16,069 nt of DNA, from the IMG/VR virus record IMGVR_UViG_2526164651_000005; one strand, 5' to 3'. Of the stretch, positions 7,030 to 16,069 are shown piece after piece; position 1 is the stretch's first letter; each line of letters opens with the position of its first letter. Source of the DNA: a virus. Taxonomy: Duplodnaviria > Heunggongvirae > Uroviricota > Caudoviricetes. A program made the position numbers and the translations under genes. Under the pieces are notes generated by a model. The model was given only the letters and a program-made list of their open reading frames with translations. It was not told the origin of the DNA and did not search any database.

Positions 7030-7167
7030 TTTCCCGCCTGTTAATGTGCTCGCCAATATTCATTACCAGGCGGGAAAACGATCGGTGCGATTACTGATTT
7101 CCTTATGAAAAACGGTTGAGTGTTTGCCGCGTCCTGGAGTTCCTTACTTAACCCCAGGACTTTTTTT
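7030..7167 (+). promoter_or_regulatory. Structured leader of the capsid operon: perfect 11-bp long-range stem (7030..7040 with 7067..7077) and a terminator-like hairpin (GTCCTGG 7131..7137 with CCAGGAC 7154..7160) followed by T7 abutting the capsid ATG
   Basis: Inverted repeats read from the sequence. The T7 run occupies the position where a Shine-Dalgarno would be expected. A second CCAGGAC copy at 7012..7018 could pair alternatively with 7131..7137. Confidence 0.4.
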
Positions 7168-8325
7168 ATGCAGAGAATAATCGAATTACGCCAGCAGAAA
7201 ACCGCCATTAAAAATCAGATGCGCGACATGCTGGAGAACGCTGAAAAAGAAAACCGCAGTCTTAACGATGCTGAGGGCGCAAAATTTGACGAATTACGCG
7301 CTAAAGCTGAATCCCTCGCTAAAGACATTTCCCGCCTTGAAGCCATTGCAGACGAAGAGCGCAGCAAGCCAGGTAAAAGCAGCCAGACCACTGACCCCGC
7401 AGAACTACGCAACTACATTCTGACCGGTGAAACCCGCGCATTAAGTACAGGCGTTCCCGCTGATGGTGGTTATACCGTTATCCCTGAACTGAACACCGAA
7501 ATCATGCGAATGCTGGCGGATGAATCCACCATGCGCCGCATCTGTACCGTGAAGAAAATCAGCAGCAACGAGTTTAAGCAGCTTGTTTCCGCTGGCGGTG
7601 CGACCGTTAACCACGGTGAAGAGGGTAAGGCACGCGAACAGACCAGCACCCCGCAGATTAACGAGGTGAGCATTAAGCTGTATCCGGTCTATGCGTACCC
7701 GCGCACCACACAGGAAATCGTGGATTTTTCCGATGTGGACATCCTTTCATGGCTGACGGGTGAGATTGGCGACACCTTCACGGAAACCGAAGAAAGCGAT
7801 CTGGTTGTGGGCGACGGTGACAAAAAAGCAAAAGGTTTTTTATCCGTACCCCGTGCAGAGAAGAACGACAAAGAGCGTGATTTTGGTACGTTGCAGGTAA
7901 TTAAACCTTCCGAATCTCTGGCGTGGACATCTGCGGACCCGCTGATCGACCTGAAATTTGCATTACGTAAAAAATACCGCAAAAACACGGTCTGGGTGGT
8001 TAACTCCACGACGGCGGCAAAACTTCAGAAGGTGAAGAACGCGAACGGTGATTATATCTGGCGCGACCGTTTACAGGCGGGTGATCCTGATACGTTGCTG
8101 GGCCTTCCGGTCGAATATCTGGAGTTTATGCCTGATAACGTTATTGCCCTGGGTGACTTCAAACGCGGTTACTACATTGTTGATCACGAAACAGGTGTTC
8201 GCACCAGACCGGACAACCTGACAGAACCAGGATTCATCAAAATTTTCACGCAAAAATATTTAGGCGGTGGCGTGGTGGATTCGAACGCGATCAAGATTCT
8301 GGAACTGCCGGAAGACGACGATTAA
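7168..8325 (+). CDS. Major capsid protein, HK97 fold family, 385 aa
   Basis: Coiled-coil-like N-terminal delta/scaffold region (MQRIIELRQQKTAIKNQMRDMLENAEKE...) followed by a capsid body of typical HK97-like length. Gene context (protease and portal downstream). The track start at 7120 (GTG) was rejected in favour of the ATG at 7168. Confidence 0.9.
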   Translation: MQRIIELRQQKTAIKNQMRDMLENAEKENRSLNDAEGAKFDELRAKAESLAKDISRLEAIADEERSKPGKSSQTTDPAELRNYILTGETRALSTGVPADGGYTVIPELNTEIMRMLADESTMRRICTVKKISSNEFKQLVSAGGATVNHGEEGKAREQTSTPQINEVSIKLYPVYAYPRTTQEIVDFSDVDILSWLTGEIGDTFTETEESDLVVGDGDKKAKGFLSVPRAEKNDKERDFGTLQVIKPSESLAWTSADPLIDLKFALRKKYRKNTVWVVNSTTAAKLQKVKNANGDYIWRDRLQAGDPDTLLGLPVEYLEFMPDNVIALGDFKRGYYIVDHETGVRTRPDNLTEPGFIKIFTQKYLGGGVVDSNAIKILELPEDDD

Positions 8326-8335
8326 CAGCATACAG

Positions 8336-8364
8336 AAGGGGCTAAAAAGCCCCTTTAGTGTTTT
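8336..8364 (+). terminator. Intrinsic terminator-like hairpin after the capsid gene (AAGGGGCT-AAAA-AGCCCCTT, then TAGTGTTTT)
   Basis: Perfect 8-bp GC-rich stem with a 4-nt loop immediately after the capsid stop; the downstream T-tract is interrupted, suggesting a partial terminator. Confidence 0.5.
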
Positions 8365-8937
8365 ATGGGTGAAAAAATTATGAAGAGTATGGAAATCCGG
8401 TCATCGGAAATCACCACCAGCGGAGCCGGCACGCTGACGGGCTACGTTGTTCGCTGGGATAAGCTTTCAGAACTGTTATGGGGTGAGTTTTACGAAAAAT
8501 TCCAGCGGGGGGCGTTTACTGAATGGCTTGCGGCGGGTAATGACGTTCGCGGCCTGTATGAGCATGACCACAGCATGTTACTGGGGCGCACCCGTTCCGG
8601 CACGCTGAAACTGGAAGAGGACGAAACAGGGTTACGCTTTGAACTGACCCCACCGGATACCAGTACAGGGCGCGACGTTATCGAACTGGTTAAGCGTGGG
8701 GACATCTCGGGGATGAGCTTTGGCTTTCGCTCCCGTAAGGATGTATGGGATACCACAACAGATCCATGCGTGCGCACCGTGCTGGTGGCGGAACTGTACG
8801 AAATTACCGTTACATCGGTACCGGCTTACCCCGATTCCGGCGTGGAGCTGGCCCGCCGTTCCCTGTATGAGCAGCACCCCGAAAAAATGCCGCGTGCGGA
8901 TAATCGCCGCTGGTGGGCGGATTTAGCGGGGGTGTGA
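8365..8937 (+). CDS. Prohead maturation protease, HK97 family (about 185-190 aa)
   Basis: Size, position between capsid and portal genes, and HK97 prohead-protease-like sequence (…HDHSMLLGRTRSGTLKLEEDETGL…). Start is ambiguous between ATG 8365 and ATG 8380; the latter has GGGTGA upstream. Confidence 0.85.
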   Translation: MGEKIMKSMEIRSSEITTSGAGTLTGYVVRWDKLSELLWGEFYEKFQRGAFTEWLAAGNDVRGLYEHDHSMLLGRTRSGTLKLEEDETGLRFELTPPDTSTGRDVIELVKRGDISGMSFGFRSRKDVWDTTTDPCVRTVLVAELYEITVTSVPAYPDSGVELARRSLYEQHPEKMPRADNRRWWADLAGV

Positions 8938-8938
8938 T

Positions 8939-10150
8939 ATGTGGCCTTTCAGACGAAAAAAAGAGCAGCGCAGCATGACGCTTGATGAATTTATGGCGCT
9001 GGCCGGCACATCGAACACGGGGGCGGGTGAGTACGTATCATCTGGGACAGCGGAATCACTCCCCGCCGTCATGAACGCCGTCACGGTCATCTCTGAGGCG
9101 GTGGCTACCATGCCGTGTTACCTGTACCTGGTACGCAATGAGAAGGGGAAGGAGGCCCGCGAATGGCTTGATTCTCATCCGGTCGATCACATCCTCAACG
9201 AGCGCCCGAACGCGTGGCAGACACCCTACCAGTTTAAGCGAATGATGATCCGCCACTGCCTGTTAAGTGGTAATGCTTATGCGGTTATTCAGTGGGGGCG
9301 TGATGGTTTTCCGGCGGCTTTACATCCTTACCCGCCGCAGTCGGTGAACGTGGAGCAGACAGGTGATCATAACTGGCGCTACTGCATCACTGACGCCTAC
9401 ACCGGAAACACCCGCAACTATTTACCGTGGGAGGTTCTCCACCTTCGTTACTCCACGGATGACGGTTTTATGGGGCGCTCACCTGTAACCATCTGCCGCG
9501 AATCGCTGGGGCTTGGGCTGGCCCAACAACGCCACGGCGCGAGCGTGATGCGTGATGGCATGATGGCGGCAGGGGTTATCACGTCAGGCGAATGGCTGGA
9601 CGGCGTGAAGGGCAAACAGGCATTAGCCGCACTGGAACGCTACAAAGGGGCCAGAAACGCCGGAAAAACGCCCATCCTTGAAGGGGGGATGAGCTATCAG
9701 CAGCTGGGCATGAGTAATCAGGATGCCGAATGGCTGGCCTCCCGTCGCTTCACCATTGAAGACATCGCCCGAATGTTCAATGTCTCGCCGATTTTTTTGC
9801 AGGAATACAGCAACAGCACCTACAGCAACTTCAGCGAGGCAAGCCGCGCATTTCTCACCATGACGATGCGCCCGTGGCTGGCGAACTTTGAGCAGCAGAT
9901 AAAAAACGCCTTGCTGGTGGCCTCGCCTGTACCTGGTATCCGGTATCAGGTGGAGTTTGACAGCGCGGACCTGTTACGGGCCACACCTGGCGAACGCTTT
10001 GCCACCTATGAGCGCGGCATAAAATCCGGCGTTATGTGTCCGAACGAAGCCCGCGAACGTGAAGGGCTGTCACCGCGTGATGGTGGTGATGAGTTCAGCC
10101 AGGCATGGAAACAGGAAGTAAAAATCAGCGAGGGAGAAAAACCGGAATGA
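8939..10150 (+). CDS. Portal protein, HK97 family, 403 aa
   Basis: Length and sequence character of HK97-type portals; tightly coupled to the protease gene upstream and the head-closure gene downstream (overlapping ATGA). Confidence 0.9.
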   Translation: MWPFRRKKEQRSMTLDEFMALAGTSNTGAGEYVSSGTAESLPAVMNAVTVISEAVATMPCYLYLVRNEKGKEAREWLDSHPVDHILNERPNAWQTPYQFKRMMIRHCLLSGNAYAVIQWGRDGFPAALHPYPPQSVNVEQTGDHNWRYCITDAYTGNTRNYLPWEVLHLRYSTDDGFMGRSPVTICRESLGLGLAQQRHGASVMRDGMMAAGVITSGEWLDGVKGKQALAALERYKGARNAGKTPILEGGMSYQQLGMSNQDAEWLASRRFTIEDIARMFNVSPIFLQEYSNSTYSNFSEASRAFLTMTMRPWLANFEQQIKNALLVASPVPGIRYQVEFDSADLLRATPGERFATYERGIKSGVMCPNEAREREGLSPRDGGDEFSQAWKQEVKISEGEKPE

Positions 10151-10485
10151 ACATAGGGCGACTGCGTGACAGGATAACGATTCAGACCCTGAAACAGACC
10201 AGGGATATAACCGGCGAAATACTCGAAACGTGGGAGGACGGTCACACACTCTGGGCAAGCGTGAACATGGTCAGCAGCAAGGAGGCCATTTCATCGGGCG
10301 CAGAGCTGGCGATTGGTACCGTAAGGATCTGGATACGGTACCGGAAGGACATCAACGCCACCAGCCGGATAAAGGTCAGTACGGGGCCGCTGGCGGGGCG
10401 TGTACTGAATATCATCGGGCAGCCGCTGCCGGATGCCGCCAGGACACGCCTTGAAATTCTTTGTCGTGAGGGCGCGGAAAAATGA
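10147..10485 (+). CDS. Head-closure / head-tail joining protein (SPP1 gp16-like), 112 aa
   Basis: N-terminal MNIGRLRDRITIQ... and ...RIWIRYR... match the conserved pattern of phage head-tail joining proteins. ATG at 10147 overlaps the portal stop; AGGGAG lies upstream. Confidence 0.8.
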   Translation: MNIGRLRDRITIQTLKQTRDITGEILETWEDGHTLWASVNMVSSKEAISSGAELAIGTVRIWIRYRKDINATSRIKVSTGPLAGRVLNIIGQPLPDAARTRLEILCREGAEK

Positions 10486-10778
10486 CAGAAGAACTTATCA
10501 CCCTGGAAGAAGTGAAACTCCATTGCCGCATCGATGGCGACGATGAAGACCAGTTAATCAGCGGATACATTGCCGCATCGCTTGAGGCGTGCCAGATACA
10601 CATAGGCAGGCGCTTTGATGACGGGCTGGCGTTCACGCCAGCCATAAAGATTGGCTGCATGATGTTTATCGCTCACCTGTATGAAAATCGCCAGATTGTC
10701 GCGGATAACGCAAAAACACGCGTACCCATGACGATAGGCGCACTCTGGACGGCTTACCGTGATGTGGGGGTGTACTGA
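10482..10778 (+). CDS. gp6-like head-tail connector (adaptor) protein, 98 aa
   Basis: N-terminal ...ITLEEVKLHCRIDGDDEDQLISGYIAAS... resembles the gp6-like connector family. Start overlaps the upstream stop (ATGA). Confidence 0.75.
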   Translation: MTEELITLEEVKLHCRIDGDDEDQLISGYIAASLEACQIHIGRRFDDGLAFTPAIKIGCMMFIAHLYENRQIVADNAKTRVPMTIGALWTAYRDVGVY

Positions 10779-11218
10779 TGCCGTGGCAACCATTAAGACG
10801 ATGCACAGAACCAGGCTGTAACAGGCGCGTTAAATCCGGCAAGTGTGAGGAGCACAGGCGGGCGGCATGGCGTGCAGAGGATGCCAGACGAGGACACCGC
10901 CGCGCGCGTGGATATTCCAGACAGTGGGACAAATACCGCGCCATGTATCTGAGTAAAAACCCGTTATGCGTGCGATGCCTTGAGAAGGGGATATATACGC
11001 CCGCCGTGGTGGTGGATCACATTATCCCGATTAATGGCGGTGATGATGTTCTCTTCTGGCCCGAATGGAACCATCAACCATTGTGCCAGGCGTGTCATAA
11101 CCAGAAAACGAAATGGCTTGATCCGGCAACAAAAAGCAAGCGTGCCGCAGGTGGATTTCGTGAAGAGGAAGAACGGGCTGCTAACCGCAATAACTGGATG
11201 TATGACGCTGATGAATGA
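10778..11218 (+). CDS. HNH endonuclease (terminase-associated), 146 aa
   Basis: Cys-rich zinc-binding pairs (CTEPGC...C..H; C..C; C..C) and the HNH core (VDHIIPI...N.QPLC..CHN.K). Position directly upstream of TerS and TerL, as in HK97-like cos packaging modules. Confidence 0.85.
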   Translation: MPWQPLRRCTEPGCNRRVKSGKCEEHRRAAWRAEDARRGHRRARGYSRQWDKYRAMYLSKNPLCVRCLEKGIYTPAVVVDHIIPINGGDDVLFWPEWNHQPLCQACHNQKTKWLDPATKSKRAAGGFREEEERAANRNNWMYDADE

Positions 11219-11384
11219 GCGGGAACAAAACCGCCTTATCCGTGGACTTATAAGGCAGCGTGACGCATGGAAGACACAGGAAACAGGGCATAAAGATAAA
11301 GCGTCAGGACGCGCAGAACGCATCACAGCGAAGCGATTAACCGACCGTGACCGCGAGGTTATGGAATGTTTCCGCAATCGCTGA
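11211..11384 (+). CDS. Hypothetical small basic protein, 57 aa (MNEREQNRLIRGLIRQRDAWKTQETGHKDKASGRAERITAKRLTDRDREVMECFRNR)
   Basis: ATG overlaps the HNH stop (ATGAATGA), suggesting translational coupling. It is the tail of a longer alternative-frame ORF in the track, so low confidence. Confidence 0.3.
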   Translation: MNEREQNRLIRGLIRQRDAWKTQETGHKDKASGRAERITAKRLTDRDREVMECFRNR

Positions 11385-11506
11385 TGAGGCTGTATGATGG
11401 GGTGGGGGGCGTTTTCAGGACAAACCCGACCCCGCCGGGCACCGAACGCCTCCCCAAATTTTTATGCACGGGAATTTTTTGAAAAATAATCTGACGAAAA
11501 ATAAGC

Positions 11507-11863
11507 ATGGCAAGACCACCGAAAGCCCCCGCCTACCTGGATGATATCGCCGTGAAGCAGTGGCGGGAAAAATCGCGGCAGCTTGCGGAACGGGGAGACC
11601 TGACCCCCGCCGACTGGAGCAATCTGGAACTGTATTGCGTCAACTACTCCATTTACCGGAAAGCCGTTGCAGACCTTGCGGCGCGCGGGTTCAGCATTGT
11701 TAACAGTCAGGGCGGCGAGAGCAGAAACCCCGCATTAAGCGCAAAATCCGACGCTGAAAGAGTGATGATAAAAATGGCCTCCTTGCTCGGTTTTGACCCG
11801 ATAAGCCGCCGTAAAAATCCACCGGAAACAGAAGAAGAGGACGAGCTTGACTGCCTGGAATAA
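11507..11863 (+). CDS. terS: Terminase small subunit, P27 family, 118 aa
   Basis: Conserved P27-family pattern (W...L......D...L..YC..Y........G.........G....NPA.......M......GF.P.SR) and position immediately upstream of TerL. Confidence 0.75.
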   Translation: MARPPKAPAYLDDIAVKQWREKSRQLAERGDLTPADWSNLELYCVNYSIYRKAVADLAARGFSIVNSQGGESRNPALSAKSDAERVMIKMASLLGFDPISRRKNPPETEEEDELDCLE

Positions 11864-13508
11864 GTACGCAGAAGACGTAAAAACGGGCAAAATTCCGGCC
11901 TGTAAACGGTTAAAACAGGCTGTTAAACGGTACTTTTCGGACCTTAAAAGCCCCCTTTACACGTTCGATCGTGAGGTTGTGGAGCGGTTTATTGCCTTTT
12001 CCAGGGTGTGCCCGCACGTAAAAGGACCGATGCGTGGCAGACCCATTGAGCTGGAGCCGTGGCAGCAGTTCGCCTTTGCGTGCATCCTCGGCTTTAAGGT
12101 TAAGGCCACCGGACGGCGCAAATACACGAGCGCCTTTATCGAAGTGCCGCGCAAAAATGCGAAATCCACGACCGCCGCGATTCTGGCTAACTGGTTTCTG
12201 ATTATGGAGAACGGTCAGCAGGATATCTACACCGCAGCGGTGAGCCGTGACCAGGCGCGGATCGTGTTTGATGATGCGCGTCAGATGTGCCTTTTATCCC
12301 GACCGTTACGCAGGCGGGTGAATATTCAGGCGCATAAGGTGATACACCCGAAAAGCAACAGCCTGTTAAAGCCGCTGGCAGCAAAAGCGGCAACCATCGA
12401 GGGGACAAACCCCAGTCTTTCCATCGTGGACGAATACCACCTACACCCCGATAACGGCGTTTATTCCGCGCTTGAGCTGGGGATGGGCGCACGTCCCGAA
12501 GGGCTGTTATTTGCCATTACCACATCGGGCAGTAACGTCGTTTCAGCCTGTAAACAGCACTATGATTATTGCTGCCAGATCCTGGACGGCGAAGAGGTCA
12601 ACGATTCAATTTTTGTACTGATTTACGAACTGGACGACGAAAACGAGGTTGATGATCCGGCGATGTGGATAAAGGCGAACCCTAATATTGATGTTTCCGT
12701 GGATCGTGAAAAACTGGCCTCAACCATCCAGAAAGCGCGGGGTATTCCGTCGCAGTGGGTGGAGATGATGACAAAGCGATTTAATATCTGGTGTCAGGGG
12801 ACTACCCCGTGGATGGGTAATGGTGCATGGGCTGAGTGTGCCGGAACGTTCACGGAGGAAGATTTACACGGTCAGGAGTGTTACGCGGGGCTGGACTTAT
12901 CATCAACCAGCGATATTTCCAGCGTATGCTATGCCTTTCCGGTCGGTAAAACCATTATGCTGATTTCCCGTCATTATCTGCCGGAGTTCCAGCTACAGAA
13001 CCCCGCCAATAAAAACCGCGCTGTCTATCGCCAGTGGGCTAAAGCGGGCTGGATACGCACAACGCCAGGTGACTGCATTGATTACGACCGGATCAGAGAT
13101 GACATCATGCAGGATGCGGAGAAATTTAATATCAGGCTGGTGGGCTTTGATACGTGGAACGCCACGCATCTCAGGACGCAATTACAGGGGGCTGGTTTTG
13201 AGGTGGAGCCGTTCCCGCAAACCTACCTCAGATTCAGTCCGGCGGCGAAATCGTTCGAAGTTTTTGTTAACCGCAGGGTGATTGTGCATCGTGGCGATCC
13301 GGTGTTGTCCTGGTCGATGAGTAACGTCGTGATGCAGAGTGACGCGAACGCCAATATCAAGCCGAACAAGAAAAAATCACCGAACAAGATAGACCCGAGC
13401 GTAGCGGTGCTGATGGCGTTTGGTACATTCCAGGCAGAGCATGAGGCTTTTGCTTTTGATATAAGCGACAGCCACCGCCAGAAACTGGAAGAATTTAGCG
13501 GGGTGTAA
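11847..13508 (+). CDS. terL: Terminase large subunit (ATPase/nuclease), 553 aa
   Basis: Length and sequence features of large terminases. Probable TTG start at 11847 with GAGGA 5 nt upstream, overlapping the end of terS. Start codon uncertain. Confidence 0.9.
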   Translation: MTAWNKYAEDVKTGKIPACKRLKQAVKRYFSDLKSPLYTFDREVVERFIAFSRVCPHVKGPMRGRPIELEPWQQFAFACILGFKVKATGRRKYTSAFIEVPRKNAKSTTAAILANWFLIMENGQQDIYTAAVSRDQARIVFDDARQMCLLSRPLRRRVNIQAHKVIHPKSNSLLKPLAAKAATIEGTNPSLSIVDEYHLHPDNGVYSALELGMGARPEGLLFAITTSGSNVVSACKQHYDYCCQILDGEEVNDSIFVLIYELDDENEVDDPAMWIKANPNIDVSVDREKLASTIQKARGIPSQWVEMMTKRFNIWCQGTTPWMGNGAWAECAGTFTEEDLHGQECYAGLDLSSTSDISSVCYAFPVGKTIMLISRHYLPEFQLQNPANKNRAVYRQWAKAGWIRTTPGDCIDYDRIRDDIMQDAEKFNIRLVGFDTWNATHLRTQLQGAGFEVEPFPQTYLRFSPAAKSFEVFVNRRVIVHRGDPVLSWSMSNVVMQSDANANIKPNKKKSPNKIDPSVAVLMAFGTFQAEHEAFAFDISDSHRQKLEEFSGV

Positions 13509-13521
13509 TGAGGTCAGCAGC

Positions 13522-13803
13522 ATGACAGAAGCCGAAATACTGCGATTAATCCGCCGCGTCTCTGGAATCAGCCAGCAGGCTGACGAACAGACCACGCAGC
13601 CGGACAGCGTGACAGCCGAAAATTATGCGCGTGTTGTTGCTGAGGTGATGCGCCGTGATGGTATCCAGCTTAATGATGCGGATATGCGCGACATACGGAT
13701 CCGCGTTCTGGAAATGCTGGCCTACAATCGCCGCGTTGAACTGTATCGGGAGAAGGAGAAAATCACGTACCACTGGAAGAAGCCGGAGCGGTTACGGCGG
13801 TAA
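13522..13803 (+). CDS. Hypothetical protein, 93 aa (last ORF of the element)
   Basis: GAGGT about 10 nt upstream of the ATG. No recognisable family. Confidence 0.45.
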   Translation: MTEAEILRLIRRVSGISQQADEQTTQPDSVTAENYARVVAEVMRRDGIQLNDADMRDIRIRVLEMLAYNRRVELYREKEKITYHWKKPERLRR

Positions 13804-14052
13804 CTCACTGAGATTAAAGCAAAGCGCAAAATTGCGCTGGCTACATCCCTCACATCTGAGGACTGTTAACCAGCAGGCCGGAATATATTCACAAACTACG
13901 AAATTTTCGCAGTTTAATTACTCGTCAGCTTAATCGCTAACCCGCTCTGATATTTTCGGAAACCTCAATTTGAGGAAGTCGGCGAGGTAACTGTTTGATA
14001 TTCCCGATAGCGCAAAAATGCGCGGTCGGGCAGAATGACCACCACCTCAATC

Positions 14053-14088
14053 GTGACGGAGAGTGACAACCAGTGACACACCGTGACA
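14053..14088. repeat. Four GTGAC(A) motifs at exact 10-bp phasing (14053, 14063, 14073, 14083); candidate binding array for a recombination or regulatory protein
   Basis: Read directly from cGTGACggag aGTGACaacc aGTGACacac cGTGACaaaa. The helical-repeat spacing places all sites on one DNA face. Confidence 0.45.
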
Positions 14089-14140
14089 AAAAGACGGTTT
14101 AACCGTTCATTAAAAATCGACGTGATTTTGTGCTTTCCGG

Positions 14141-14165
14141 ATGACGTGGCCAACGTCATTTTTTA
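14141..14165 (+). terminator. Rho-independent terminator (ATGACGT-GGCCA-ACGTCAT followed by T6)
   Basis: Perfect 7-bp stem with a 5-nt loop and TTTTTT at 14160..14165. On the minus strand no U-tract follows, so it is orientation-specific to the plus strand. Confidence 0.6.
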
Positions 14166-14466
14166 GCGAAAAATTCTGATTAAGGTCACTGGCTGAACGG
14201 TCATAATGACCACGCAGACCATCGAGGCAACCATAGCGATCATCGTTACGGTTGGAGCTTTTCCGCCATTGGTGGAAAAGGTGCACATCTGGATCATCAT
14301 TACGGTGATCAAGGGTATGTAAAACCCACCAGCCTGATTAAAGGTTAACCGGAAAAAAATCCGGTAGCCCCGTTATGGGGATCCCCATATCGACATTAAC
14401 GCCCCTCATGAATTGGTGCGCTTCCCCCTGGAAAGATTACCCGCCTGTATATTTCTTGTGTCTATT

Positions 14467-14481
14467 TGTTCCACGTTGTTT
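14467..14481. repeat. Second copy of the 15-bp motif TTGTTCCACGTTGTT (also at 6938..6952)
   Basis: Exact 15-bp identity between two loci about 7.5 kb apart in the same element; both are preceded by TATTTGTTC. Confidence 0.5.
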
Positions 14482-14498
14482 CATACAGTGCACCGAAC

Positions 14499-14522
14499 GG
14501 TGTAGTTAATGGTGTAGTCAAT
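14499..14522. repeat. Tandem 12-bp direct repeat GGTGTAGTTAAT / GGTGTAGTCAAT, with a (CTTGA)x3 tract nearby at 14573..14587, close to the phoQ 3' end
   Basis: Read directly. Located in the non-coding stretch between the element cargo and the phoQ stop codon; candidate att or arm-site region. Confidence 0.35.
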
Positions 14523-14608
14523 TTGCGATTTTTGGCACTTTTTCAATGAAAATTGTTTAATCGAATCAATGGCTTGACTTGACTTGATGTAGTGATAAAA
14601 GGACATAT

Positions 14609-16069
14609 TTATTCATCTTTCGGCGCAGAATGCTGGCGACCAAAAATCACCTCCATCCGCGCACCGCCCAGCATGCTCTCTCCGGCGACGATTTTACCCT
14701 CATATTGCTCGGTGATTTCGCGGGCTACCGCCAGCCCTACACCTTGCCCAGGGCGTAAAGTATCAACCCGTTGACCACGGTCGAAAATGATCTCTCGCTT
14801 GCTTAATGGAATACCGGGGCCATCATCCTCGACCACAATATAGAGATGCTCGTCGGTTTGCCTTGCAGAAATTTCGACAAACTCGAGGCAATATTTACAG
14901 GCATTATCCAGCACGTTGCCCATCACCTCGACAAAATCGTTCTGCTCACCGACAAAGCTGATCTCTGGCGAAATATCGAGAGAGATATTGACCCCTTTGC
15001 GTTGATACACTTTGTTCAGCGCTGAGGTGAGATTGTCCAGCAGTGGGGCGACCGGATGCAGCTCGCGGCTGAGCAATGTCCCGCCGCGCATACTGGCACG
15101 ATGCAGGTAGTAGCCAATTTGCTGTGAAATGCGGCTGATTTGCTCCAGCATTACCGGCTCAGCATCACTGACGCTCATCTTTTCACTACGCAGAGAACGC
15201 AGCGTACTTTGCAGCACCGCCAGTGGCGTTTTCAGACTATGGGTCAGGTCGGTGAGCGTCGTACGGTATTTGTCGTAACGTTCGCGTTCACTTTTTAACA
15301 ATCGGTTCAGGTTTCGTACCAGACTGGTCAGTTCTCGCGTTGTGGCTGGATTGAGCAATTCGCGGTTATGTTCTTCCAGTTCGCGGACTTCTTTTGCCAG
15401 GGCTTCGATGGGGCGTAAACTCCACCAGGCGGCGACCCACAGCAGCGGGATCACTAACAGCAGATTGGCTGAGAGCACATAGATAAACCAGCTCCAGACC
15501 ATATAGGAACTTTTTAGCTCCACCGGAATGGTATCCACCACCACAATGGTTAATTTTGGCATCCGCGATGTTGCCGGGTAGACGTTTACCGCCACCGAGT
15601 GGGTCATCTCCGCGTCGTCATCATCTTCCCGCACTTCCTGCAACTGTTGCTGTATCGAATGATCTCCACTCAGCAAGAGGCTGGTATCGTTAACATCCGC
15701 TTCAATTTCATGAAAACCATTCGATTTCAGCCAGTCAGGCTGGATCATTTTCATCAGCCAGGGCACGTCACGTTGCGCCCATAAAAGCTGCCCGTTCTCA
15801 TCATAAATTAGCGTCATGGTGGGGCTTTGCTTGTCGATATTTTCGGGTAACTCGACATGCAACTTATTGTTTTCCCACTGCGCAAGGGTATAGAACAGAT
15901 TGCTCTCGCCACGTAACAGCCGAAACGTAGTTTTATCGAAACTGACGCTATAACCGATCAGCGCGACCATTCCGTAGGCAAGCGAAAGCACCAGTACTAC
16001 CGCTGCCGTTGCCAACAGAAAACGTACCCGCAGCGAGAGCGGGAAAAAAAGACGCAGTAATTTTTTCAT
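14609..16069 (-). CDS. phoQ: Sensor histidine kinase PhoQ (PhoP/PhoQ two-component system), 486 aa, host chromosomal gene
   Basis: Full-length translation matches E. coli PhoQ by recollection ([25 protein letters not shown]... through ...[18 protein letters not shown]). Contains the histidine-kinase H-box ([12 protein letters not shown]) and the ATPase G-boxes ([14 protein letters not shown]). The start codon is the last three bases of the window. Confidence 0.97.

What the first reader, a model, noticed from the sequence alone, without database searches (positions are those of the whole stretch)
13804..14608. Insertion junction immediately 3' of phoQ without a tRNA; undefined att site
P4-family integrases most often target tRNA or tmRNA 3' ends, but no tRNA-like sequence is evident in the roughly 800 bp between the last element gene and the phoQ stop codon. 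The stretch contains a tandem 12-mer (14499..14522), (CTTGA)x3 (14573..14587) and the shared 15-mer, and phoQ appears intact to its native C-terminus. The element therefore seems to use a protein-gene-proximal attachment site, with the core probably within 14166..14608. The integrase-proximal junction lies upstream of the window.
Basis: partly seen in the sequence, partly recalled or inferred. Interest (0 to 1): 0.55.

Follow-up and report, generated by a model that had tools for sequence, protein, structure and literature searches.

The report
Known satellite attachment site beside phoQ
The stretch is the right-hand end of a capsid-forming phage satellite (a close relative of the published EcCIEDL933) sitting in the already published roxA(ycfD)-phoQ attachment site of E. 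coli, so the junction is real and tRNA-free but ordinary.

Summary
There is no tRNA or tmRNA, phoQ is intact, and the 12-mer tandem, (CTTGA)x3 and a shared 15-mer are all present.

The attachment site is not undefined. Comparison with empty-site and occupied E. coli genomes puts the duplicated core, GGACATATTT, at 14601-14610, overlapping the phoQ stop codon. The second copy lies about 172-180 nt upstream of the integrase start, outside the window.

Fillol-Salom et al. 2018 (Table S1) list exactly this core and site (ycfD-phoQ) for EcCICFT073. The prototype cf-PICI EcCIEDL933 sits at the same place in EDL933. About 11% of complete E. coli genomes have the site occupied.

I read the rest of the stretch as a lambda-style complex attP arm:
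- The tandem 12-mer is repeated upstream of int and changes together with the integrase N-terminal arm-binding domain, so it is probably an arm-type site.
- An IHF consensus sits between the arm sites and the core.
- The reconstructed attP has TGATAAAA-GGACATA-TTTTATCA, an 8-bp inverted repeat around a 7-bp spacer.
- The shared 15-mer belongs to 10-bp-phased TTGT iterons, which may be AlpA sites.

(CTTGA)x3 is an extra 5-nt unit absent from every related element compared. The same lineage has a 1-nt deletion in attL.

Novelty: already known.

The parts
1..1230 (+). Tyrosine integrase (409 aa) with an N-terminal arm-DNA-binding domain
   Evidence: Pfam Arm-DNA-bind_3 at residues 8-95 and Phage_integrase at 214-375. 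It is 99.3% identical to the Int of the O157:H7 classical PICI at the same site and 90.5% identical to the tqsA-targeting Int.
1273..1322 (-). Array of five 10-nt-phased TTGT iterons between int and alpA
   Evidence: There are 4 such arrays in the element and none in 300 shuffles.
1605..1793 (+). AlpA-family regulator/excisionase-like protein (62 aa)
   Evidence: PF05930 is recorded for this gene in L003. PHROG 2790, 'excisionase and transcriptional regulator'. The protein is near-identical across all the elements compared.
6907..6957 (+). Array of five TTGT iterons upstream of the capsid operon; it contains the second copy of the shared 15-mer (6938-6952)
7120..13508 (+). cf-PICI packaging module: capsid, prohead protease, portal, head completion protein, connector, HNH, TerS and TerL
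   Evidence: Pfam hits. It is 96.8% identical to EcCIEDL933 over 6523-13805.
13804..14322 (.). Variable, mostly non-coding right-end segment of the element. It includes the 15-nt near-repeat AGCGCAAAATTGCGC / AGCGCAAAAATGCGC and a small hydrophobic ORF on the minus strand at 14163..14312
   Evidence: The alignment of right arms shows large indels here between elements. No family match was found for any ORF.
14323..14455 (.). Conserved outer part of the P arm. It holds a reverse Chi site, the hairpin CCGGAAAAAAATCCGG and the 16-nt palindrome TATGGGGATCCCCATA (14374-14389)
   Evidence: Largely conserved in cf-PICIs and classical PICIs, including the tqsA type. Palindrome and Chi-containing 14-mers.
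14456..14485 (+). Three 10-nt-phased TTGT iterons (TTGTGTCTAT TTGTTCCACG TTGTTTCATA); they contain the 'shared 15-mer' at 14466-14480
   Evidence: They are identical in window, L001, L007 and L008. A matching array of four lies in the P' arm at L003 2912-2951.
14499..14522 (+). Tandem 12-mer GGTGTAGTTAAT GGTGTAGTCAAT, probably arm-type integrase binding sites of the P arm
   Evidence: TRF. These are the only exact matches in the window. A second exact pair lies upstream of int at L003 2955-2978. The tqsA-type element has GGTGTAGTCACT at both arms and its Int differs mainly in residues 1-75.
14564..14576 (+). IHF consensus match AATCAATGGCTTG between the arm sites and the core
   Evidence: Exact match to WATCAANNNNTTR. 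There are 3 matches in the window against 0.65 expected. A match to the consensus is kept at this position in L001, L007 and L008.
14573..14587 (+). (CTTGA)x3, an extra 5-nt unit absent from all relatives compared, in the spacer between the IHF site and the core
   Evidence: TRF. L001, L007, L008, L010 and L133-L136 all lack the extra 5 nt.
14593..14600 (+). C half-site TGATAAAA, the element-side core-type site
   Evidence: In the reconstructed attP it is the perfect inverted partner of TTTTATCA (L003 2827-2834) across a 7-nt spacer.
14601..14610 (.). Duplicated att core GGACATATTT (attR copy). 14601-14607 (GGACATA) is the inferred 7-bp overlap region
   Evidence: Comparison of attL, attR and attB. 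The same core is published for ycfD-phoQ.
14608..14615 (+). B' half-site TTTATTCA, the chromosomal core-type site. It covers the phoQ stop codon and its last codon
   Evidence: It matches C' (TTTTATCA) at 6 of 8 positions. The sequence is native chromosome, identical in K-12.
14609..16069 (-). phoQ, intact
   Evidence: 486 aa, 484/486 identical to K-12 PhoQ.

Best explanation
Region 13804-14610 is the right (P-arm) end of a roughly 14.8-kb capsid-forming phage-inducible chromosomal island (cf-PICI). The island is integrated by its own tyrosine integrase into the roxA(ycfD)-phoQ intergenic attachment site of E. coli.

Shown:
- The insertion is precise.
- The core GGACATATTT is duplicated, at 14601-14610 (attR) and about 172-180 nt upstream of int (attL).
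- No tRNA is involved.
- phoQ is untouched, because everything to the right of the core is native chromosome.
- The same core, site and integrase type are published and were experimentally validated for EcCICFT073. The prototype cf-PICI EcCIEDL933 occupies the same site.

Inferred (the excised attP is a lambda-style complex site):
- Two 8-bp inverted core-type half-sites, TGATAAAA and TTTTATCA, flank a 7-bp overlap, GGACATA.
- Pairs of arm-type sites (GGTGTAGTYAAT x2) lie on both arms, bound by the Int N-terminal Arm-DNA-bind_3 domain.
- An IHF site in the P arm bends it.
- 10-bp-phased TTGT iterons sit next to the arm sites on both arms. They are candidate sites for the AlpA-type excisionase/regulator.

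In this lineage attL has lost one G of the overlap and the P arm has gained 5 nt, which together may impair excision.
For: Precise insertion:
- The K-12 roxA-phoQ spacer is 75 nt.
- A synthetic empty site built from the two flanks is 100% identical to real genomes, and 4823 of 5426 complete E. coli genomes have the site uninterrupted.

Duplicated core:
- attL, attR and attB were compared in window/L003, L001, L008 and L010.

Literature:
- PMC6092414 Table S1 gives core GGACATATTT at ycfD-phoQ for EcCICFT073, and ATAACAGCA in tqsA for EcCI042. I derived both cores independently.
- The same paper shows excision and circularisation by PCR and int-attP plasmid integration.
- The cf-PICI paper says cf-PICIs share four attB sites with classical PICIs.

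Relatives at the same site:
- EDL933 carries its cf-PICI between roxA and phoQ. It is 95-97% identical to the window over int and the packaging module.
- The cf-PICI gene set is confirmed by Pfam.

Arm sites:
- There are exact copies only at the two arms.
- They covary with the Int N-terminus: 19 of 39 differences from the tqsA-type Int fall in residues 1-75.
- The EcCIDI14 Int keeps the same arm repeat. Its N-terminus is less changed (8 differences in residues 1-75), while its central domain and its core differ.

Other elements:
- IHF consensus.
- Iteron arrays: 4 observed, 0 in 300 shuffles.
- Absence of tRNA.
Against: - No excised attP junction was found in any public collection searched. 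Activity of this particular copy is therefore not shown.
- Position 3 of the proposed overlap is polymorphic (G/A), and lysogens occur in all four attL/attR combinations. Either Int tolerates a mismatch in the overlap, or the true overlap is CATATTT rather than GGACATA.
- The inverted-repeat symmetry is only 5/8 in the tqsA-type attP.
- Protein binding to the arm repeats, the IHF site and the iterons is inferred from sequence only.
- The attL 1-nt deletion and the 5-nt insertion suggest this copy may no longer be mobile.
Confidence: 0.9

Rival explanations
1. This is a conventional tRNA/tmRNA-targeting P4-family element whose tRNA lies just outside the window or is too degenerate to see.
For: The integrase belongs to the P4-like group with an Arm-DNA-bind_3 domain, and many members of that group target tRNA genes (general knowledge).
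Against: - There is no tRNA or tmRNA in the window, in the 3 kb upstream of int in the same lineage, or within the 3-20 kb flanks fetched for related occupied loci.
- There are no Rfam hits.
- The left neighbour is roxA and the empty site is a 75-nt protein-gene spacer.
Confidence: 0.01
2. The tandem 12-mer (GGTGTAGTTAAT x2) is itself the attachment core, being the direct repeat found at both ends of the element. A published table lists it this way for EcCIDI14.
For: - It occurs in direct orientation near both ends.
- PMC6092414 Table S1 gives CGGTGTAGTTAATGGTGTAGTTAATT as the 'att site core' of EcCIDI14.
Against: - Both copies lie inside the element: 79 nt left of the junction at attR and about 125 nt right of it at attL.
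- The empty site contains no such sequence.
- Chromosomal sequence stops at GGACATATTT.
- In EcCIDI14 the repeat also lies about 80-110 nt inside both ends.
Confidence: 0.02
3. The site and core are as described, but strand exchange takes place in CATATTT (14604-14610) rather than GGACATA. The TGATAAAA/TTTTATCA symmetry would then be coincidental.
For: - CATATTT is the only block identical between the element and K-12-type attB (GGGCATATTT).
- Lysogens with attL G / attR A and with attL A / attR G exist. This is what is expected if position 3 lies outside the overlap.
Against: - There is a perfect 8/8 inverted repeat exactly 7 nt apart in the phoQ-type attP, and 7/8 at the same geometry in the EcCIDI14-type attP.
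- All four half-sites begin with TGA.
- Conservation between phoQ-type and tqsA-type P' arms begins exactly at TTTTATCA.
- Segregation of a heteroduplex with a mismatch inside the overlap also yields both discordant types.
Confidence: 0.25
4. In this lineage the element is a locked-in remnant. It reached or stayed at the site by vertical descent or homologous recombination of the flanks, and it can no longer excise.
For: - attL in four assemblies that encode the window's exact Int protein reads GACATATTT, one G short.
- None of 587 complete genomes with this attL junction matches the window-lineage variant exactly.
- The P arm carries an extra 5-nt unit not seen in the eight relatives whose P arm is intact.
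- The copy in Nissle 1917 shows that such elements do decay at both ends.
Against: - int, alpA and all packaging ORFs are intact.
- One-base and 5-base changes may be tolerated.
- No functional test was possible.
Confidence: 0.35

Closest known systems
EcCIEDL933, the prototype capsid-forming PICI of E. coli O157:H7 EDL933 (Alqurainy et al., bioRxiv 10.1101/2022.09.08.507074)
   Same: - Same insertion site between roxA and phoQ, with the same attL and attR core.
- Same gene order: int, alpA, replication genes, capsid, protease, portal, head completion, connector, HNH, TerS, TerL and the 93-aa ORF.
- 95-97% nucleotide identity over int and the packaging module.
   Different: - The replication module differs: a D5_N/DUF5906 primase here against a DUF927 protein in EDL933.
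- The variable right-end segment differs.
- The window has the extra CTTGA unit, and its lineage lacks one G in attL.
EcCICFT073 / EcCIRM12579 ycfD-phoQ attachment site (Fillol-Salom et al. 2018, PMC6092414, Table S1)
   Same: - Identical published core GGACATATTT and identical flanking genes.
- The Int of the O157:H7 classical PICI at this site is 99.3% identical to the window's Int.
   Different: Those are classical PICIs of about 11 kb that hijack helper-phage capsids. The element here encodes its own capsid and terminase.
EcCI042-type elements integrated in tqsA (core ATAACAGCA)
   Same: - Same element family. The cf-PICI in O103:H2 (L007) matches the window at 93% identity over 86% of its length, up to about 30 nt from the core.
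- Same iterons and same C' half-site.
   Different: - Different core and target, which lies inside a gene.
- The arm repeats are GGTGTAGTCACT.
- Its Int is 90.5% identical, with the changes concentrated in the arm-binding domain.
Lambda-type complex attP, and P4/CP4-57-type Int with an AlpA/Vis regulator (general knowledge)
   Same: - Int has a separate arm-binding domain.
- Arm-type repeats lie on both arms, and an IHF consensus lies between arm and core.
- Inverted core-type sites flank a 7-bp spacer.
- A small Xis/AlpA-family protein is encoded next to int.
   Different: None of the protein-DNA contacts has been tested for this element. The site is intergenic rather than in a tRNA gene, unlike P4 (tRNA-Leu) and CP4-57 (ssrA).

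Membership tests
E. coli PICI attachment site ycfD(roxA)-phoQ (EcCICFT073/EcCIEDL933 type) | The element lies between roxA (ycfD) and phoQ | tested here: met
   phoQ is at 14609..16069. roxA lies immediately left of int in L003-L006, which encode the identical Int. The same arrangement is seen in L001, L008 and L010.
E. coli PICI attachment site ycfD(roxA)-phoQ (EcCICFT073/EcCIEDL933 type) | A direct repeat of the core GGACATATTT at both junctions, with one copy in the empty site | tested here: met
   - attR copy at 14601-14610.
- attL copy at L003 2821-2829, which lacks the first G in this lineage.
- A full 10-nt core is present at both ends in L001, L008 and L010.
- The empty site has a single copy.
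- Published core.
E. coli PICI attachment site ycfD(roxA)-phoQ (EcCICFT073/EcCIEDL933 type) | An integrase of the same specificity group | tested here: met
   409 aa, 99.3% identical to the O157:H7 PICI Int at this site and 95.1% identical to the L001 Int.
E. coli PICI attachment site ycfD(roxA)-phoQ (EcCICFT073/EcCIEDL933 type) | Int-dependent excision, circularisation and re-integration | not testable with these tools
   This was shown experimentally for EcCICFT073 in PMC6092414. No attP junction turned up in public data for this element.
Capsid-forming PICI (cf-PICI) | Encodes its own HK97-type capsid, protease, portal, head-tail connectors, HNH, TerS and TerL | tested here: met
   Pfam hits: Phage_capsid, Peptidase_S78, Phage_portal, Phage_HCP, Phage_connect_1, HNH, Terminase_4, and TerL_ATPase plus TerL_nuclease.
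Capsid-forming PICI (cf-PICI) | Has int, alpA and a primase/replication module, has no tail or lysis genes, and is about 10-15 kb | tested here: met
   - Int, AlpA and a D5_N primase are present.
- No tail or lysis gene is annotated in the close relatives L001 and L010.
- Every large ORF of the window has a counterpart in those relatives.
- The element is about 14.8 kb from core to core.
Capsid-forming PICI (cf-PICI) | Helper-phage-dependent induction and use of helper tails | not testable with these tools
   Known only from experiments on EcCIEDL933.
tRNA/tmRNA-targeting P4-family integrative elements | The att core lies in the 3' end of a tRNA or tmRNA gene at one junction | tested here: not met
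   ARAGORN and Rfam find nothing in the window or in L003. Both flanks are protein-coding genes.
Lambda-type complex attP (heterobivalent integrase site) | The integrase has a separate arm-binding domain, and the arm repeats differ in sequence from the core | tested here: met
   PF13356 at residues 8-95. GGTGTAGTYAAT pairs lie on both arms. They covary with the Int N-terminus.
Lambda-type complex attP (heterobivalent integrase site) | Inverted core-type half-sites around a 6-8 bp overlap | tested here: inconclusive
   - TGATAAAA-GGACATA-TTTTATCA is a perfect repeat in the reconstructed attP.
- The EcCIDI14-type attP matches 7/8, but the tqsA type only 5/8.
- The G/A polymorphism inside the proposed overlap leaves the exact crossover open.
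Lambda-type complex attP (heterobivalent integrase site) | Binding by IHF and by a directionality factor | not testable with these tools
   Only sequence matches are available: the IHF consensus at 14564-14576 and the TTGT iteron arrays.

The most novel reading that the evidence does not exclude
The 10-bp-phased TTGT iterons occur as four arrays: on both att arms next to the Int arm sites, between int and alpA, and upstream of the capsid operon. The reading is that they are the binding sites of the PICI master regulator AlpA. One protein would then act both as the directionality factor for excision and as the activator of int and of the packaging operon, tying excision physically to late-gene expression.

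A side consequence is that several 'att cores' listed in the literature, such as those for EcCIDI14 and possibly the yejM-luxR group, would be arm repeats rather than crossover sites.
Probability: 0.35. Interest if true: 0.4.

Novelty: already known. Interest (0 to 1): 0.12.

Why it matters
It matters little as a discovery. The site, its 10-bp core and the element family are all published, and the prototype cf-PICI sits at the same place.

The practical value is in annotation:
- The window's element can be named a cf-PICI of the EcCIEDL933 type.
- Its right boundary can be set at 14600/14610.
- phoQ can be recorded as unaffected.

The finer anatomy proposed here gives specialists concrete sites to mutate. 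It covers the arm-type sites, the IHF site, the core-type inverted repeat, the iterons shared between the att arms and promoter regions, and the private att lesions in this lineage. It also flags that some tabulated PICI 'cores' are probably arm repeats.

Tried and rejected
- tRNA/tmRNA target: ARAGORN and Rfam were run on the window and on upstream sequence of the same lineage and found nothing. Rejected.
- Direct evidence of an excised form: I searched for the reconstructed attP 23-mer TGATAAAAGGACATATTTTATCA in viral, metagenome and genome contigs. I also searched a 193-nt attP against phage and plasmid records. No contiguous attP was found. The three 'plasmid' hits match one arm each, and two of them carry phoQ.
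- The 12-mer tandem as crossover core: rejected, because it is internal to the element and absent from empty sites.
- Locating the crossover from the G/A polymorphism at core position 3: all four attL/attR combinations exist. This does not discriminate between the two overlap models.
- Small ORFs in 13804-14322: there are no Pfam, NCBIfam or PHROG matches, and no Rfam family.
- Supplementary att-site table of the cf-PICI paper: not held in the library.
- Papers found by combining phoQ with attB, ycfD, integrase or prophage: none that I opened or listed dealt with this site.
Full report
**What is in the window**

The window runs from the ATG of a 409-aa tyrosine integrase at position 1 to the start codon of phoQ at position 16069. 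Between them lie:
- an AlpA-family gene;
- a D5_N-type primase;
- a complete HK97-like head and packaging module: capsid, prohead protease, portal, head completion protein, connector, HNH, TerS and TerL;
- a conserved 93-aa ORF ending at 13803 (PHROG 1561).

This is the gene set of a capsid-forming PICI. No tail or lysis gene is annotated in the close relatives L001 and L010.

**Check of the observation**

- ARAGORN finds no tRNA or tmRNA in the window.
- Rfam finds nothing in 13400-14800 at E<=1.
- TRF reports the 12-mer tandem at 14499-14522 and (CTTGA)x3 at 14573-14587.
- The 'shared 15-mer' is TTGTTCCACGTTGTT, at 14466-14480 and again at 6938-6952.
- PhoQ is 486 aa and 484/486 identical to K-12 PhoQ, with the same C-terminus.

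**Where the junctions are**

In K-12 MG1655, roxA (ycfD) follows phoQ after only 75 nt. Related occupied genomes have an element inserted in that spacer.

The left junction is outside the window. I recovered it from assemblies that encode the identical integrase. L003 differs from the window at 1 of 4230 shared bases.

Reading the three sites side by side:

| Site | Sequence |
|---|---|
| attB (K-12) | gaagtatGGGCATATTTattcatc |
| attL (L001, L008, L010) | gaagtatGGACATATTTtatcaatt |
| attR (window) | gataaaaGGACATATTTattcatc |

The duplicated core is therefore GGACATATTT, at window 14601-14610. It overlaps the last two bases of the phoQ stop codon (TTA, 14609-14611). Everything to the right of the core is native chromosome, which is why phoQ is intact.

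A synthetic empty site made by joining the two flanks is 100% identical to real sites in many genomes. 4823 of 5426 complete E. coli genomes have the site uninterrupted. 587 genomes carry the attL junction. 62 genomes carry an element that covers at least 80% of the window.

It fails: there is none in the 3 kb upstream in L003 and no Rfam hit there.

**This is already published**

- Table S1 of Fillol-Salom et al. 2018 (PMC6092414) lists EcCICFT073 and EcCIRM12579 with 'att site core GGACATATTT, att gene ycfD-phoQ'. It lists EcCI042 with 'ATAACAGCA, tqsA'.
- I derived both cores independently. The tqsA core came from an O103:H2 cf-PICI that matches the window at 93% identity over 86% of its length.
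- The same paper shows spontaneous excision and circularisation by PCR, and int-attP-dependent plasmid integration.
- The cf-PICI paper states that cf-PICIs use six attB sites in E. coli, four of them shared with classical PICIs.
- In EDL933 the prototype cf-PICI lies exactly between roxA and phoQ. It is 95-97% identical to the window over int and the packaging module, and its replication module differs.
- Sakai annotates the locus as prophage Sp7.
- The window's Int is 99.3% identical to the Int of the classical PICI at this site in O157:H7 strain Z866.

**Anatomy of the 800 nt**

An alignment of five right arms splits the stretch into two parts.
- 13804-14322 is variable, with large indels between elements.
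- From about 14323 to the core, the sequence is conserved in both cf-PICIs and classical PICIs.
- The tqsA-type arm diverges only in the last 30 nt or so before the core.

Within the conserved part I assign the following features.

1. **Arm-type sites.** The tandem GGTGTAGTTAAT GGTGTAGTCAAT (14499-14522) has its only other exact copies as a second pair 23 nt upstream of the int ATG (L003 2955-2978), in the same orientation.
   - The tqsA-type element has GGTGTAGTCACT at both arms. Its Int differs from the window's at 39 residues, 19 of them within the first 75, inside the Arm-DNA-bind_3 domain (residues 8-95).
   - EcCIDI14 keeps the GGTGTAGTTAAT repeats. Its Int N-terminus is less changed, while its central domain and its core differ.
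   - I therefore read the tandem as arm-type Int sites. This is inferred, not shown.
2. **IHF site.** AATCAATGGCTTG (14564-14576) matches the IHF consensus exactly, and a match to the consensus is kept at that position in L001, L007 and L008.
3. **Core-type half-sites.** Joining the two element ends gives TGATAAAA-GGACATA-TTTTATCA, a perfect 8-bp inverted repeat around 7 bp.
   - The EcCIDI14-type attP has the same geometry at 7/8. The tqsA type reaches only 5/8.
   - The chromosomal half-sites TGAAGTAT and TGAATAAA (reverse complement of TTTATTCA) share the leading TGA.
4. **Iterons.** The 'shared 15-mer' is part of 10-nt-phased TTGT iterons. There are four arrays and none appear in 300 shuffles.

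| Iteron array | Coordinates |
|---|---|
| P arm | 14456-14485 |
| P' arm | L003 2912-2951 |
| Between int and alpA | 1273-1322, minus strand |
| Upstream of the capsid operon | 6907-6957 |

   - AlpA is nearly invariant across elements whose Int types differ, and so are the iterons. AlpA is therefore my candidate binder. That is a hypothesis.

**Private changes in this lineage**

- (CTTGA)x3 is an extra 5-nt unit that none of the eight relatives with an intact P arm has. It lengthens the spacer between the IHF site and the core from 11 to 16 nt.
- attL reads GACATATTT, one G short, in four assemblies that encode the window's exact Int protein. None of the 587 complete genomes with this junction matches that variant exactly.

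If GGACATA is the overlap, attL has a 6-nt spacer against 7 in attR. Together the two changes could impair excision, but nothing here tests that. The Nissle 1917 copy shows that such elements do decay, since it lacks the P-arm sites and most of int.

**Open point**

Position 3 of the core is G in K-12-type sites and A in many others. Lysogens exist in all four combinations:
- A/A: L001, L008, L010;
- G/G: L133, L134;
- attL G with attR A: L135;
- attL A with attR G: L136.

This fits either a mismatch tolerated inside a GGACATA overlap followed by heteroduplex segregation, or an overlap placed in CATATTT. I favour the first on symmetry grounds but cannot exclude the second.

**Searches for an excised attP**

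I searched viral, metagenome and genome contigs and phage and plasmid records. All were negative.

**Verdict**

The att site is already known, and the element is a new member of the EcCIEDL933 cf-PICI group at its usual site. Interest is low. The arm-site, iteron and att-lesion readings are modest additions that need experiments.

Noticed in passing
window 14163-14312 (minus strand) and 14085-14325 (plus strand): There is a small hydrophobic ORF on the minus strand. Its core, MIAMVASMVCVVIMTVQPVTLIRIFR, shows only conservative hydrophobic substitutions in L007 and L008. It lies antisense to a plus-strand stretch that folds unusually well (z -4.5, against -1.3 for the minus strand). No Pfam, NCBIfam, PHROG or Rfam match was found. 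It may be a type I toxin-antitoxin-like module in the accessory segment.
   Followed up: partly
L131 (NC_017652.1 244000-265000) 5049-5072 and 15665-15688; PMC6092414 Table S1: The published 'att site core' of EcCIDI14 (CGGTGTAGTTAATGGTGTAGTTAATT) is the internal arm repeat, which lies about 80-110 nt inside both ends. The real junctions share only about GTGA, inside an IS110 element. The tandem-looking cores listed for the yejM-luxR group and for NmCIFF6 may be arm repeats too.
   Followed up: partly
window 1273-1322 (-), 6907-6957 (+), 14456-14485 (+); L003 2912-2951 (+): There are four arrays of 10-nt-phased TTGT iterons: at both att arms, downstream of int, and upstream of the capsid operon. 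None appear in 300 shuffles. They are candidate AlpA or directionality-factor boxes.
   Followed up: partly
L003-L006 2820-2829 (attL of the window's lineage); window 14573-14587: The lineage has a private 1-nt deletion in the attL core. None of the 587 complete genomes with this junction matches that variant exactly. It also has a private 5-nt CTTGA insertion in the P arm. Both may immobilise this copy.
   Followed up: partly
core position 3 (window 14603); L133-L136: There is a G/A polymorphism in the att core. Natural lysogens occur as A/A, G/G, attL G with attR A, and attL A with attR G.
   Followed up: yes
window 2041-2054, 6104-6117, 13131-13144 (+) and 14323-14338 (reverse): Four Chi sites (GCTGGTGG) sit within a longer shared context of 12-14 nt (CAGGCTGGTGGG, up to ATCAGGCTGGTGGG). 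Three face one way and the one in the P arm faces the other.
   Followed up: no
window 14374-14389: A perfect 16-nt palindrome, TATGGGGATCCCCATA, lies in the conserved outer P arm. Its GGGGATCCCCATA core is conserved in L001, L007 and L008, and its function is unknown.
   Followed up: no
L009 (E. coli Nissle 1917) 19049-19282 and 28811-28990: The classical PICI at the same site in Nissle 1917 has lost most of int, with the deletion starting inside the attL core. It has also lost the whole P arm, including the arm sites. It looks like a decayed, immobile copy.
   Followed up: partly
L007 (E. coli O103:H2 CEC12044) 3820-19770: A cf-PICI that matches the window at 93% identity over 86% of its length is inserted inside tqsA, splitting the gene. 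Its core is ATAACAGCA.
   Followed up: yes
window 13823-13838 and 14009-14023: Near-palindromic 15-16-mers (AGCGCAAAATTGCGCT and AGCGCAAAAATGCGC) lie within a roughly 40-nt repeat (GGTAACTGTTTGATATTCCCGATAGCGCAAAA). The repeat borders the indels between elements in the variable right-end segment, so it may mark module-exchange boundaries.
   Followed up: no
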